Positions 39,933-64,000 of a stretch of 64,000 bases of DNA are shown one piece after another (position 1 is the stretch's first letter; the number at the start of each line of letters is the position of its first letter). The notes under the pieces were generated by a model. The model was not told where the DNA came from, did not search any database, and saw only the letters and a program-made list of their open reading frames with translations. Source of the stretch: Eledone cirrhosa (lineage: Eukaryota); assembly GCA_964016885.1 (NCBI GenBank), contig OZ024740.1:400148001-400212000 (forward strand), read 5' to 3'. A program made the translations under genes and the position numbers.

Positions 39933-40253
<321 letters not shown>

Positions 40254-40290
40254 CGTAAAATAAGAAAATTAACTTACTTACTTAAATTTC

Positions 40291-40372
40291 ACTCGCAACT
40301 AATTAGTTTCTGAAAGGGATTAAACGTACTATCCGAAGAGAGCACGGAGAAGCCTTTCGTCATCAGGGAAGT
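40291..40372 (-). ncRNA. Type I hammerhead motif (copy 1)
   Basis: acttcc CTGATGA c gaaagg...cctttc a GAAA ctaattag TT gcgagt; one mismatch in stem I. Confidence 0.75.
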
Positions 40373-40811
40373 CTATTCTCAGCTAAGTTCCCAGGCAATA
40401 CGTGGACACAGGGAACTTATACAAAAATAATTCAGTGGATGGAAAAGGCAAAGCGAGGACTAATTCCAAGCCATTGATAAAATCACTGCCTACTGCGTCG
40501 GTGGCAAATTCAAAAGAATCAATCACGTGACATCGAGGTCAATCAGTGGATAGTGGTTTGTTAGTAAGACAGCAGCCGCAACGTTACTATAGCAGCAGTT
40601 TTGGCCATTTTTGCTCGACAAATAATTTTGGAGATAATTATAAAGAATTAGTATATCTAGTAACATATATATACACAGATGCATACTTATGTTAGCAAAT
40701 ATATAGGTTTTGTCTTAGTAACTATGTGGTTCAATGCATGGGGTAGCAGAACAATAATATGAGAGACGTAAAATAAGAAAATTATAAAATTAACTTACTT
40801 ACTTAAATTTC

Positions 40812-40893
40812 ACTCCCAACTAATTAGTTTCTGAAAGGGATTAAACGTTCTATCCGAAGAAAGCACAGAGAAGCCTTTCGTCATCAGGGAAGT
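40812..40893 (-). ncRNA. Type I hammerhead motif (copy 2)
   Basis: acttcc CTGATGA c gaaagg...cctttc a GAAA ctaattag TT gggagt; 6-bp stem I; palindromic stem III (aactaattagtt). Confidence 0.8.
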
Positions 40894-40955
40894 CTATTCT
40901 CAGCTAAGTTTCCAGCAATACGTGGGCACAGGGAACTTATATATATACTATATAT

Positions 40956-41204
40956 AGAGTTATAAACTCAAACAGTCTTTTACAATTAAATAGCTCAAAG
41001 AAAGAGATATTTCTGAGCCGTGAAATACAAATTAATATATGATAAACACTAATACAAGTATATAAGTGTTTGTATTGCAAATGACCAAGTTAGCTAGATT
41101 GAAAAATACTAATTTAATTAGTATTTTTCAATCTAGGTAACTTGGTCATATGCAATACAAACACTTATATACTTGTATTAGTGTTTATCATATATTAATT
41201 TGTA
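40956..41204 (-). mobile_element. Diverged relative of the 27.8-28.5 kb element with a ~90-bp fold-back
   Basis: Minus strand acggctcagaaatatctctttctttgagctatttaattgtaaaagactgtttgagtt versus acggctggcaaatatctctttcttagagctattttgttgtaagagactattttgagtt at 27966; hairpin 41025-41204. Confidence 0.7.
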
Positions 41205-42112
41205 TATATATGTACATTGATATTAAATAAATGGAAACTATATTTATAAAACCTTATTTATTCTATTATATATATTTCAAGGGCACCAAAATGTTGGTAC
41301 GCTGTCATCAGATAAAATACAAAATGTTTTATAAATATTTGACATAACCAAGGATAATATACCTTAACGGTTCAAGTTATCCCTGGAAAGTGAAGGGAAG
41401 TGAAAAAAACAGATATTTAAAATTATTAATATGAGTATGCAAATGAGGTTTATGTAAAAGGACTGAAAAAAACGTTATTTTAGACGCTATGGAAAATTTA
41501 AATAATTATGATAAGTTATGGTATGCGTAGGAAGGAAGAAAAAGGAATAACGTTAATTTAGGGGGAAAAGATTTGTTACCTATATTATGAGTTATAATAT
41601 TGTATATATAATCAATTAGATTATATGAAGAATTATGTTTGTAAGTATTTTTATCTTATTACATTAGGATAGGTTATATGTATATAAATATCTATATATA
41701 TTTTAATAAGTTGCATATGTATTGATTGTTTATATATCACATATGAGGATGTTGAAATTGTATTTTCAAGTTGTGAGAGTAGAATAATTTCTGGATTCAA
41801 AAATGTTGTTCACCATTGAGAATGTTTTCAGAATGTTGTTAATTTAACGAAGCTATATATTATCAAACAAAAAATCGTTATGTTTTCACGATTGATAAGA
41901 GTGTTTATGTTTTCACGATTGAGAAAGGAAAAATAACTCCAATTTTGTTTGTTAACCATTAAAATTAGAGAAAAAAACTTATTATTATACTCCAGAAATA
42001 CTGTTGAGTGCTCTAAATCAATTATAAACATTTATATTTGTTGAATTACCAACAAATTGAATATCCCTTCTGCTTATATATATATGTATGTATATATATA
42101 TATATATATATA

Positions 42113-42453: not shown

Positions 42454-42550
<97 letters not shown>

Positions 42551-42729
42551 CATTTTCGCTCTACATGGCTGAATACAATAAATGTAATGTGAGGTTTTCG
42601 AATATCGATAATATTATTCGATTCGTTTGCAATTATGCAAACAAGCCTCATTTTTAAAACCATGTCAGTAGAATGAGCCCCTCATTCTTGCTCTTGTGTT
42701 GGCATGTAAACAGAGTTTTTCGAATATTA

Positions 42730-43025
42730 ATAATTGTTTCTACTTTTGGTACAAGGCAAGTAATTTCCCAGTGTATTACTGGTACTTTATTTTATCGAGC
42801 CCGTAAGGATGAAAGGCAAAGTTAACCTCGGCGGGATTTGAACTCAGACCATAAAGGGACCAAAGCATGGTGTCCAACTCTCTACCGATACTACCAATCC
42901 ATAATAATTATTTCTACTTTAGGCACAAGGCCAGCAAATATCCAGTACATTACTGGTACTTTATTTTATCGAGCCCGTAAGGATGAAAGGCAAAGTTAAC
43001 CTCGGCGGGATTTGAACTCAGACTG
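42730..43025 (-). mobile_element. Two tandem SINE family A copies
   Basis: tttatcgagcccgtaaggatgaaaggcaaagttaacctcggcgggatttgaactcagac occurs twice. Confidence 0.85.
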
Positions 43026-43212
43026 TAATAATGATATCCGATTCGTTTGCAATTATGCAAACAAGCCTCATTTTTAAAGCCATGTCAGTGGCTAATATGC
43101 AGTCTGACTGATCAGCCAGTCTGCTAACATGCAAATCAGGCCGATCAGTCACTGTATATTTTAGAAAGTATCATATATTGTCACTAGCTCTGACAGTTGG
43201 CAGGTATACAGT

Positions 43213-43261
43213 GAACTGTACTGATGAAGGGTATACCCAGAAACATTAGTGTCTGCAGTTC
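43213..43261 (+). ncRNA. Type I hammerhead ribozyme motif
   Basis: gaactgta CTGATGA a ggg tata ccc a GAAA ca ttag tg TC tgcagttc; 8-bp stem I; GUC cleavage after 43253. Confidence 0.85.
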
Positions 43262-43983
43262 TGTTTACATGCCAACGCAAGAGCAAGAATGAGGAGCTCA
43301 TTCTACTGGCATGGCTTTAAAAATGAGGCTTGTTTGCATAATTCCCAACGAATCGAATATTATTATTAATATTCGAAAAGTTCAGATTACATTTATTGTA
43401 TTCAGCCATGTAGAGCGAAATTTTCTTTTTTTTTAATATGGCAAAGCCGTCTATTGATCGCTTGTATACAGGAAATTGACTGGCCAGTCTCCTGATATGC
43501 AAATCTGGCTGATCAGTGGATCTACAAATAATTTATTTCTAGGACATAATTACATAAATGTTCAGCTTGTATGTACAAATGACACGAGGTATTAAATGTA
43601 TGAGTAACTTTGGAAAGGTTACAATTTACATGAAAATATATAGGGTTAGCATCCAGGATCCTGTAATACAAAATTGAACTTCATATTGTTGCAACATGAC
43701 TGGGAAATGCTTTGTGTATGTGTGTGAGTGTGTAAATTATAAAGAATTACAGAGAGGACGAACGATCTCAGCAATATATAAGGTGATACACACACACAAA
43801 CTTACAAACAATACACAACATCTCACATATTTCCCCTTTTCTATTCTTTGTTTTTTAATCTATTTAATATTGTACTCTCCTGATGACAGACTAACATCCA
43901 ATACGTCGAACAGTTTTCTCTCTTTCATCTAAAGCATAAATCTAATAACACTAATTGTTTTGTATCTCTGTGTATTGTCATTT

Positions 43984-44074: not shown

Positions 44075-44516
44075 TGTTATACTTTGGGAGGGTCATGATG
44101 CCAAAAAAAAAACAAAAAAACACACACGCACCAGTTGGTTTTCATTTCAATTTATTATAAATTTCCGGTTGGTCGGTTCGATAACCGGAAGGTTGTTTAT
44201 ATATTATCAAAGCTTTTACGTCACACATACTGTGACCTCCTCAGTGACTAGGTTTTTATTTTGTGTGTCTCTCCTTTGTTCTGTCCTACAGAACACAACA
44301 CACAACACCAAGATGGTGTAGGACAGAACAAAAGAGAGACACAGAAAATAATAACCTAGTCACTGAGGAAGTCACAGTATGTGTGACGAAAGAGCTTTGA
44401 CAATATATAAACAACCTTCTGGTTATCGAACCAACCGAAAATTTATAATAAATTGAAGTGAAAACCAACTGGTGTGTGTGTTTTAATTGGCAGCATCAGC
44501 CGCCTAAAGTATAACA
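44075..44516. repeat. ~200-bp-arm inverted repeat with a hammerhead motif in each arm
   Basis: 44075-44290 is the inverse of 44317-44516; + arm 44359-44401 gtca CTGAGGA a gtcaca gtatg tgtgac GAAA gagc TT tgac. Confidence 0.8.
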
Positions 44517-62396: not shown

Positions 62397-64000
62397 AACA
62401 ACTACCACAATAGCCACCACCATAGCCACCACCACACGACCTGACCATACTACCTCCCATACAACAACAACAGGGAAACAACTACCACAATAGCCACCAC
62501 CATAACCACCACCACACGACCTGACCATACTACCTCCCATACAACAACAACAGGGAAACAACTACCACAATAGCCACCACCATAACCACCACCACACGAC
62601 CTGACCATACTACCTCCCATACAACAACAACAGGGAAACAACTACCACCATAGCCACCACCATAGCCACCGCCACACGACCTGACCATACTACCTCCCAT
62701 ACAACAACAACAGGGAAACAACTACCACAATAGCCACCACCATAGCCAACACCACACGACCTGACCATACTACCTCCCATACAACAACAACAGGGAAACA
62801 ACTACCACAATAGCCACCACCATAGCGACCACCACACGACCTGACCATACTACCTCCCATACAACAACAACAGGGAAACAACTACCACAATAGCCACCAC
62901 CATAACCACCACCACACGACCTGACCATACTACCTCCCATACAACAACAATAGGGAAACAACTACCACAATAGCCACCACCATAGCCACCACCACACGAC
63001 CTGACCATACTACCTCCCATACAACAACAACAGGGAAACAACTACGACAATAGCCACTACCATAACCACCACCACACGACCTGACCATACTACCTCCCAT
63101 ACAACAACAACAGGGAAACAACTACCACAATAGCCACCACCATAGCCACCACCACACGACCTGACCATACTACCTCCCATACAACAACAACAGGGAAACA
63201 ACTACCACAATAGCCACCACCATAGCCACCACCACACGACCTGACCATACTACCTCCCATACAACAACAACAGGGAAACAACTACCACAATAGCCACCAC
63301 CATAGCCACCACCACACGACCTGACCATACTACCTCCCATACAACAACAACAGGGAAACAACTACCACAATAGCCACCACCATAACCACCACCACACGAC
63401 ATCACCATACTACCTCCCATACAACAACAACAGGGAAACAACTACGACAATAGCCACCACCATAGCCACCACCACACGACCTGACCATGCTACCTCCCAT
63501 ACAACAACAACAGGGAAACAACTACCACAATAGCCACTACCATAACCACCACCACACGACCTGACCATACTACCTCCCATACAACAACAACAGGGAAACA
63601 ACTACCACAATATCCACCACCATAGCCACCACCACACGACCTGACCATACTACCTCCCATACAACAACAACAGGGAAACAACTACCACAATAGCCACCAC
63701 CATAGCCACCACCACACGACCTGACCATACTACCTCCCATACAACAACAACAGGGAAACAACTACCACAATAGCCACCACCATAGCCACCACCACACGAC
63801 CTGACCATACTACCTCCCATACAACAACAACAGGGAAACAACTACCACAATAGCCACCACCATAACCACCACCACACGACCTCACCATACTACCTCCCAT
63901 ACAACAACAACAGGGAAACAACTACGACAATAGCCACCACCATAGCCACCACCACACGACCTGACCATACTACCTCCCATACAACAACTACAGGGAAACA
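62397..64000 (+). repeat. 80-bp tandem satellite, ~20 near-identical copies, runs off the window end
   Basis: aacaactaccacaatagccaccaccatagccaccaccacacgacctgaccatactacctcccatacaacaacaacaggga; ORF track shows an 80-bp period. Confidence 0.97.

What the first reader, a model, noticed from the sequence alone, without database searches (positions are those of the whole stretch)
43091..43520. Third ORF-less unit (~368 bp): hammerhead plus octamer motifs
Seen: gccagtct..ATGCAAAT..gatcagt at 43116-43149 and again at 43483-43517 (octamers at 43129 and 43497) brackets the hammerhead at 43213-43261. A weaker third copy lies at 43091-43115. Established: ATGCAAAT is the POU/Oct site of snRNA-type promoters. 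Inference: a unit carrying its own promoter element ~120 nt upstream of the cleavage site could drive transcription of the next tandem unit.
Basis: partly seen in the sequence, partly recalled or inferred. Interest (0 to 1): 0.7.

Follow-up and report, generated by a model that had tools for sequence, protein, structure and literature searches.

The report
Retrozyme with built-in snRNA-type promoter
This is one copy of an abundant ~435-base jumping repeat in an animal genome that holds a predicted self-cutting hammerhead RNA and, just ahead of it, a stretch matching the start signals of the host's own small nuclear RNA genes, which likely lets these protein-free repeats drive their own transcription, as was reported for a newt repeat.

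Summary
The motifs and the hammerhead fold are real, but the unit is not 368 bp. Genomic tandems repeat every ~437 bp, and the 35-bp match is an internal 33-bp sub-repeat present three times in a row. Insertions end ~140 and ~175 nt after the cleavage site, at (TA)n, with inverted 5' arms: the layout of Penelope-type elements. This is a non-LTR retrozyme, roughly 10,000 insertions. The promoter inference gains independent support. A matrix built only from host U1/U2/U4/U5 upstream DNA ranks the site 16 nt behind the octamer 2nd of 127,922 window positions. Host U6, U6atac and U3 genes carry the octamer or a near match 71-78 nt before their start; here it lies 73 nt before the predicted start A43202, 52 nt ahead of cleavage. 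Other hammerhead families in this genome keep the same octamer spacing (12 of 80 hits, 0.14 expected). Transcription, polymerase, cleavage and circles are untested, and no autonomous partner was found. The design is known from newt satellite 2, and this scan noted it before on other DNA of this genome.

The parts
42455..42549 (.). (CA)n(TA)n microsatellite next to the 3' end of the left arm; likely the insertion target
42550..42714 (-). Inverted, 5'-truncated arm of the same element (matches 43260-43420 at 92.5%)
42704..43089 (-). Second inverted, truncated arm (pieces 42704-42734 and 43026-43089), split by a later insertion
42728..43027 (+). Two tandem copies of an unrelated dispersed repeat (SINE-like; label inferred) inserted into the second arm
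   Evidence: about ten further copies in the window; family D8
43091..43523 (+). One full period of the retrozyme (433 bp here), circularly permuted relative to the usual insertion ends
43091..43114 (+). 33-bp sub-repeat B, partial; its octamer is degenerate in the family (ATGCAGAT) and one base shorter in this copy
43115..43147 (+). 33-bp sub-repeat C with octamer 43129-43136; the 14-nt stretch around it matches the host U6/U6atac/U3 upstream motif
   Evidence: 11.0 bits, rank 11 of 127,974; copies median 12.6
43141..43180 (+). Match to the host U1/U2/U4/U5 proximal element (core TCAGT 43145-43149) with AT-rich spacer and TATA-like word 43174-43178
   Evidence: 14.25 bits, rank 2 of 127,922
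43202..43202 (+). Predicted transcription start (A after C), 57 nt behind the TCAGT core; inferred, not observed
   Evidence: spacing of host snRNA genes
43197..43275 (+). Type I hammerhead with extended stem I; core 43221-43227 and 43240-43243; stem III 43243-43252; predicted cleavage after C43253
43389..43402 (+). First cluster of insertion 3' ends in genomic copies
43418..43441 (+). T-run (43421-43434; first run of four T after the predicted start) and second cluster of insertion 3' ends, about 34 nt behind the first
43483..43515 (+). 33-bp sub-repeat A with octamer 43497-43504; in tandems it is followed directly by B and C

Best explanation
The region is one period of a ~435-bp non-coding, hammerhead-bearing repeat family (a non-LTR retrozyme) that likely carries its own snRNA-type promoter and is likely copied by Penelope-type retrotransposon enzymes. 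Shown: period, copy structure, (TA)n-flanked ends, inverted arms, the promoter-like words and their spacing. Inferred: the block octamer (-73), TCAGT (-57), TATA-like (-28) starts transcription at about A43202, at the 5' edge of the ribozyme; the polymerase, more likely Pol II than Pol III, reads through the T-run and the next unit's promoter; two hammerheads, possibly acting as a dimer, cut out a unit-length RNA that contains the promoter sequence; the RNA is likely circularised and folds into a highly paired shape; a Penelope-type RT/GIY-YIG enzyme primes at (TA)n on two AT-rich sites 34 nt apart and copies round the template, giving partial tandems and inverted arms.
For: Architecture: 82 of 122 arms over 40 nt end in two clusters, and 73 of those 82 have a microsatellite within 40 nt, against 6 of the other 40; partial tandem, inverted 5' copy and a 30-40 bp tail are the Penelope layout (PMC8557442, passages). 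Single template: arms of one locus agree at diagnostic sites in 297 of 348 (same arm) and 397 of 443 (other arm) comparisons, against 41,916 of 78,718 between loci; 29 of 38 arms over 435 nt start before the predicted start or wrap twice (these loci were selected for length). A natural 441-nt monomer folded as a circle has z -8.3 against 60 shuffles. Promoter: rank 2 of 127,922; rank 1-29 when any one snRNA family is left out; 2 of 1000 unit shuffles reach the score; 64 copies score a median 13.6 bits against 11.3 median for left-out real promoters. Octamer or near match at -76 to -78 in three U6 genes and U6atac, and at -71 to -74 in U3. In 1.2 Mb of unselected DNA, 12 of 80 hammerhead hits have an exact sense octamer at -140 to -90, 1 antisense, 0 in an equal downstream band, 0.14 expected; these belong to this family and to families B/C and D, which share no BLAST similarity with it behind the promoter yet keep TCA(G/C) at +16 (B, D) and a TATA-like word at about +41 to +45. 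GIY-YIG elements are abundant (10,597 first-look candidates).
Against: No transcript, start site, cleavage or circle was observed. Arm 5' ends show no peak at the predicted start (1 arm within 3 nt of it; the peak of six arms lies 30 nt upstream, in a hairpin loop). No host-type 3' box (copies median 5.5 bits, rank 139; window copy 2.4; real boxes median about 12.6). The host's U1/U2/U4/U5 genes lack a nearby octamer (0 of 15 score above 6.4 bits at -82 to -66) and U6 lacks TCAGT, so no tested host gene has exactly this mix. The element lacks the rest of the U6 motif (7.3 and 9.4 bits against 12.7-18.9). The matrix scores held-out U12 only 6.1 and U3 below 3. Within the family, promoter words are not more conserved than average. 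The predicted fold that mispairs the hammerhead core is 6.2 kcal/mol more stable than the hammerhead fold, stem II begins with an A.A mismatch, and 12 copies show no covariation beyond shuffles. No autonomous element sharing sequence was found in 30 GIY-YIG loci. 14 of 18 hammerhead clusters have no octamer in the band.
Confidence: 0.6

Rival explanations
1. Same element and promoter, but the polymerase is Pol III (U6-like upstream promoter), making a ~220-nt RNA that stops at the T-run; the promoter is carried along only through occasional read-through or other transcripts.
For: The octamer motif is shared with U6, U6atac and U3 and not with U1/U2/U4/U5; TATA-like word near -30; first T4 lies 219 nt after the predicted start, where the larger cluster of arms ends; families B and C are free of T4 for 272 to over 300 nt; 3 of 4 unselected loci hold only sequence behind the cleavage site; U6 and U6atac copies are joined to such elements.
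Against: Strong match to the Pol II class element; the U6-specific bases behind the octamer are missing; many arms cross the T-run and the promoter; 34% of random 219-nt stretches lack T4 anyway and one family D copy has T4 at +77; newt satellite transcripts appear to be made by Pol II (PMC6765202, PMC2220036, passages).
Confidence: 0.23
2. The octamer block is only RNA structure: an imperfect palindrome made by inverted and tandem duplication that folds into a rod in the circular RNA; its likeness to promoters is chance, and transcription comes from flanking host promoters.
For: The three sub-repeats and their flanks form one long hairpin; sub-repeat number varies from two to six or more; the middle copy has lost the octamer; promoter words are not specially conserved within the family.
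Against: Families without the triplet keep the octamer at the same distance and orientation; 18 of 95 exact octamers in 1.2 Mb are followed by a hammerhead core within 60-150 nt; the proximal-element match is on the sense strand only (best minus-strand site 2.5 bits).
Confidence: 0.09
3. The unit is the terminal repeat (pLTR) of an autonomous Penelope-like element, left behind as 5'-truncated copies, and not an independent non-coding family.
For: Same insertion architecture; vertebrate retrozymes are related to pLTRs (bioRxiv 10.64898/2026.07.22.740005, abstract and results read).
Against: Tandems join unit to unit with no coding DNA; the longest stop-free frames listed for 29 loci showed no RT reading into the unit (judged by eye); 3' regions of 30 GIY-YIG loci share no sequence with it (30 of 10,597 candidates seen).
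Confidence: 0.06
4. One reading: a 368-bp unit whose ends are marked by the 35-bp octamer motif.
For: Two copies 368 apart bracket the hammerhead in this window.
Against: Period about 437; three consecutive sub-repeats; insertion ends lie elsewhere.
Confidence: 0.01

Closest known systems
Non-LTR retrozymes of animals (Cervera and de la Pena 2020, PMC7229834, parts 2-4 of 6 read; Li, Clavereau and Pollet 2026, bioRxiv 10.64898/2026.07.22.740005, abstract and first part of results read)
   Same: Short non-coding tandem unit within the 150-450 bp range, low GC, one type I hammerhead per unit, thousands of copies, predicted highly paired circle, co-existence with Penelope-like elements.
   Different: Neither main text describes an internal promoter ('promoter' occurs only for T7 in the first; 'promoter', 'octamer', 'snRNA' 0 times in the second; supplements not seen). 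Here most insertions are short, with inverted arms at (TA)n and no target-site duplication seen.
Newt satellite 2 (Coats, Zhang and Epstein 1994; paper not held; title and a citing sentence seen in PMC2220036)
   Same: Hammerhead tandem repeat with an internal snRNA-type promoter. That it has an octamer plus proximal element, and a start about 47 nt before the cleavage site, is recalled and comes from no call.
   Different: Unrelated host and sequence; here the module is triplicated, has a TATA-like word and resembles the host's U3/U6 class as well as U1/U2; shared by several families. Function was shown in newt and is untested here.
Penelope-like elements and their pLTRs (Craig et al. 2021, PMC8557442, passages read)
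   Same: Partial tandems, inverted 5'-truncated copy, 30-40 bp tail, microsatellite targets, hammerhead near the 3' end.
   Different: No ORF; no partner element with shared ends found in 30 loci.
Schistosome hammerhead satellite/SINE (as summarised in PMC6765202 and PMC2220036, passages; original not held)
   Same: Promoter followed by a hammerhead in each tandem unit; the upstream unit transcribes the next.
   Different: That promoter is described as Pol III; the words here match the host's snRNA upstream elements.

Membership tests
Non-LTR retrozyme | Short (150-450 bp) low-GC repeat, often in tandem | tested here: met
   Period about 437, partial tandems up to 2.4 units
Non-LTR retrozyme | Type I hammerhead in each unit | tested here: met
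   Core, three stems, GUC site; 94.8% of cells paired in 12 copies, intact core in 51 of 75 segments. Caveats: A.A at the base of stem II, competing fold, no Rfam hit
Non-LTR retrozyme | Non-coding; no LTR arrangement | tested here: met
   Unit-to-unit junctions with no central region; no protein-like frame in the unit. PBS and PPT were not searched for separately
Non-LTR retrozyme | Self-cleavage in vitro | not testable with these tools
   Bench assay needed
Non-LTR retrozyme | Expressed as linear and circular monomers | not testable with these tools
   No RNA run to lay; indirect signs only
Non-autonomous Penelope-type element | Partial tandem, inverted 5' arm, 30-40 bp tail, microsatellite target | tested here: met
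   PMC8557442
Non-autonomous Penelope-type element | Autonomous partner with shared 3' end | tested here: inconclusive
   None in 30 of 10,597 GIY-YIG candidates
Host Pol II snRNA promoter (U1/U2/U4/U5) | Proximal element with TCAGT core 55-58 nt before the start | tested here: met
   Rank 2 of 127,922; the start itself is predicted
Host Pol II snRNA promoter (U1/U2/U4/U5) | 3' box behind the RNA | tested here: not met
   Median 5.5 bits in 94 copies, 2.4 in the window copy
Host snRNA promoters (both classes) | Distal TTACCTCCC-type word near -260, seen in many U1, U2, U3, U6 and U12 genes | tested here: not met
   No match inside the unit
Host U6/U6atac/U3-class promoter | Octamer-like 14-nt motif at -71 to -78 and TATA near -30 | tested here: met
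   -73; 11.0 bits, copies median 12.6; TATA-like at -28 to -30
Host U6/U6atac promoter | Full 24-nt element including the bases behind the octamer | tested here: not met
   7.3 and 9.4 bits against 12.7-18.9 for left-out genes; only four training sites
snRNA-type promoter | Drives accurate initiation; bound by SNAPc and a POU factor | not testable with these tools
   Bench or transcriptome data needed

The most novel reading that the evidence does not exclude
A distinct class of invertebrate retrozymes, at least four lineages in one genome, has kept a host small-RNA promoter cassette of fixed geometry (octamer, proximal word at +16, TATA near +43, start near +73 at the edge of the ribozyme) while the rest of the sequence diverged beyond recognition. 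The cassette joins the host's Pol II and U6/U3-class words, is triplicated in this family, and doubles as the rod that stabilises the circular RNA, so these elements are self-promoted snRNA mimics that ride Penelope enzymes, the design known from newts being general across animals.
Probability: 0.45. Interest if true: 0.7.

Novelty: new member of a known kind. Interest (0 to 1): 0.5.

Why it matters
Animal retrozymes are reported to be transcribed at high levels in all tissues examined, but the two papers read do not say what drives this. The finding gives an exact, cheap test: a predicted start base, three promoter words to mutate, and several natural families for comparison. If it holds, the newt satellite 2 design extends to a distant animal group, and the cassette also helps define an undescribed invertebrate snRNA promoter grammar. 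The element class itself is known, which caps the score.

Tried and rejected
368-bp unit: rejected. Rfam scan: no hit. Sequencing runs: no RNA holder listed; this says nothing on expression. Two runs of one sample and unknown kind, possibly the source of the assembly, were laid: 7,215 and 7,380 contigs, no variant at 10% or more in either octamer or the TCAGT core, but with about 20 polymorphic sites in 430 that is unremarkable. Arm 5' ends as a genomic 5' RACE: no peak at the predicted start; a few arms begin or end at the cleavage site (2 start exactly there, 1 ends there), too few to count. 3' box: first matrix had three mis-anchored sites, redone, not supported. U6 locus L085 first looked like a promoter with a distal octamer; it is a chimeric retrocopy and was left out of the U6 matrix, as were L077 and L084 and 12 further U6 hits without promoter words. 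L124 (U4) was left out of the Pol II matrix for lacking the core; 15 non-redundant promoters were used. Autonomous partner: not found. Structure count was mis-registered and is void; one search replaces it. Window family at 41203-41697 has the best octamer-type site, but antisense to its hammerhead in the loci where both were called, so it is not counted as support. Metagenome scan: 6 hits, none a relative of the unit. Literature searches that found no report of this cassette in an invertebrate retrozyme; most subscription papers and old scans are outside the library. Searches used 'octopus' and 'cephalopod' on a recalled guess of the taxon; no call identified the organism.

Full report
Observation. 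The octamers at 43129 and 43497, the 35-nt match 368 bp apart (86%) and the weaker copy at 43091 are in the sequence. A type I hammerhead can be drawn at 43213-43261, with stem I extending to 43197/43275 and cleavage predicted after C43253. Rfam reports nothing at gathering thresholds. Below, q counts from 43091.

The unit. The window lies in a 3.0-Gb animal genome. A search with 43091-43520 gave 3,487 first-look candidates, of which 40 were scored. In tandems the query resumes at q1 four bases after q430. Twelve hammerhead-to-hammerhead intervals have a median of about 437 bp (387-445). The motif is a 33-bp sub-repeat that occurs three times in a row across the junction (A, B, C), two to six or more times in some copies. 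The 368-bp unit is therefore wrong. In 1.2 Mb sampled by coordinates, mostly from the largest contigs and including 200 kb beside the window, 4 loci hold the family: about 10,000 insertions if extrapolated (rough; some 3,000-26,000). Three of the four are 3' fragments without promoter or ribozyme. Segments differ from each other by about 7-8% at non-diagnostic sites, so the sampled copies are not recent.

Insertion structure. Of 122 arms over 40 nt from 64 loci, 82 end at q299-312 or q328-351, and 73 of these have a microsatellite within 40 nt, against 6 of the other 40. Inverted, 5'-truncated arms are common. Partial tandems, an inverted 5' copy and a 30-40 bp tail are the layout of Penelope-like elements (PMC8557442, passages). 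The window's own insertion runs from (TA)n at 42503-42549 through two inverted arms, one split by a SINE-like pair, to one forward period ending at 43523. Arms of one locus share diagnostic bases far more often than arms of different loci (85-90% against 53%), and 29 of 38 arms longer than a unit begin before the predicted start or wrap twice. This fits copying round one circular or multimeric RNA; the loci were chosen for length, so the share is not a genome figure. A natural 441-nt monomer folds as a circle with z -8.3. GIY-YIG elements are plentiful, but 30 loci showed no shared ends.

The ribozyme. The catalytic core is intact in 51 of 75 segments. In 12 copies 94.8% of cells pair, with no covariation beyond shuffles. 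Two caveats: the base of stem II is A.A, and a fold that pairs the core with the stem III loop is 6.2 kcal/mol more stable in ViennaRNA, which ignores tertiary contacts. The same A.A occurs in metagenome hits that look like hammerheads by eye. Stem III with its loop is self-complementary with two G-U pairs (read from the sequence), which would allow dimer cleavage as described for amphibian hammerheads (PMC7229834). Activity is untested.

The promoter test. I fetched the host's U1, U2, U4, U5, U6, U6atac, U3 and U12 genes. U1/U2/U4/U5 share a TCAGT-type core 55-58 nt before the start and a TATA-like word near -31. A matrix from 15 non-redundant promoters, trained without the element, scores 43141-43180 at 14.25 bits, rank 2 of 127,922 window positions; rank 5 without the most similar gene, 1-29 without any one family; 2 of 1000 shuffles of the unit reach it; 1 of 187,242 positions in other loci does; 64 copies score a median 13.6. 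The spacing predicts a start at A43202, 52 nt before cleavage and at the edge of the distal stem I. These Pol II genes have no octamer nearby (one reversed copy at -399 in 15). Three U6 genes and U6atac have the octamer or a one-base variant at -76 to -78, and U3 a looser variant at -71 to -74; the element's is at -73. Against: no 3' box, no distal word, the U6 bases behind the octamer are missing, held-out U12 scores only 6.1, and arm 5' ends do not pile up at the predicted start.

Comparison across families. Two earlier notes of this scan on other DNA of the genome (unchecked AI notes) reported a similar cassette in divergent families, after I had reached the promoter reading. I tested this. 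Among 80 hammerhead hits in the 1.2 Mb, 12 have an exact sense octamer at -140 to -90 from the cleavage site, 1 an antisense one, 0 have one in an equal downstream band, and 0.14 are expected. They fall in 4 of 18 clusters: this family, B/C (related to each other) and two D clusters (related to each other). Behind the promoter this family shares no BLAST hit with them. B and D have TCA(G/C) exactly 16 nt behind the octamer, all have a TATA-like word at about 41-45, and CAG or TAG falls near 72-73. A fifth single locus has the octamer further upstream with CCAGC at +16 (L356). Of 77 octamers not followed by a hammerhead core, 4 have the +16 word. Retention of these words and their spacing while the rest diverged is the strongest evidence for function. 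Hits are copies, not independent events: the count of lineages is three to four.

Mechanism. Shown: structure, period, ends, words, spacing. Inferred: internal promoter, start, read-through, double cleavage, circle, Penelope-type copying. Pol II is favoured because unit-length RNA must cross the T-run and because newt satellite transcripts appear to be Pol II products; Pol III remains open because the octamer motif belongs to the host's U6/U3 class and the first T4 coincides with an end cluster. The triplet also folds into a long hairpin, so it may serve both as promoter DNA and as RNA structure.

Known and new. It is a member of the non-LTR retrozymes by every sequence feature tested (PMC7229834, parts 2-4 read; bioRxiv 10.64898/2026.07.22.740005, abstract and part of results read). 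An internal snRNA-type promoter is known for newt satellite 2 (title and citing sentence only; details recalled). Nine searches found no report for an invertebrate retrozyme; supplements were not read and older papers are missing. Verdict: real feature, wrong boundaries, well-supported but untested promoter; new member of a known kind; interest 0.5.

Noticed in passing
L161 (about 1150-1620) and L085 (991-1606): U6atac and U6 copies are joined head-to-head to hammerhead elements (this family in L161, the 41.2-41.7 kb family in L085), in L161 with microsatellites outside both ends; likely made by the same enzyme switching templates.
   Followed up: partly
window 41203-41697: A second hammerhead family (core on the minus strand at 41275-41311; 3,008 first-look candidates) has the best U6/U3-class octamer site of the window at 41437, but antisense to its ribozyme; the site scores 12-20 bits in all 25 loci fetched. 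Unexplained.
   Followed up: partly
window 40244-40941: A third hammerhead family on the minus strand in a 521-bp partial tandem, with a long stem II loop and palindromic stem III; no promoter match.
   Followed up: partly
window 16274 (+), 28280 (+), 58318 (-), 44363-44391 (+): Further hammerhead candidates of other families, without octamer or proximal-element match upstream.
   Followed up: no
L163, L166, L174, L182, L183, L187 (1800-2550, oriented to the ORF): A GIY-YIG element family whose 3' region carries the host snRNA distal word, a hammerhead-like fold with a variant first core strand (read by eye), and two 3' ends about 33 nt apart, each at (TA)n.
   Followed up: no
U3 loci L223-L231; U6 loci L071-L073; U6atac L157: The host has two snRNA promoter classes; U3 groups with U6/U6atac by its upstream motif and lacks the U1/U2-type 3' box, which may mean Pol III transcription of U3.
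   Followed up: partly
window 43091-43523: The forward arm is almost exactly one period long and ends at an atypical place without a microsatellite; could reflect one full round on a circular template, or a later deletion.
   Followed up: no
window 43360-43380 and copies: The SINE-like repeat, and other repeats, have inserted at the same AT-rich palindrome of the unit in several loci (L001, L003, L015, L022, L025, L151).
   Followed up: no
window 43171-43173: Six arms begin within these three bases, the loop of an 8-bp hairpin overlapping the TATA-like word; likely a truncation hot spot, but a second RNA start is not excluded.
   Followed up: partly
L356 (10-kb sample): Single copy of a further hammerhead family with a GUC site, octamer about 155 nt upstream and CCAGC at +16.
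   Followed up: no
window 62397-64000: An 80-bp tandem array of at least 20 copies, 97% matches, running off the window end.
   Followed up: no
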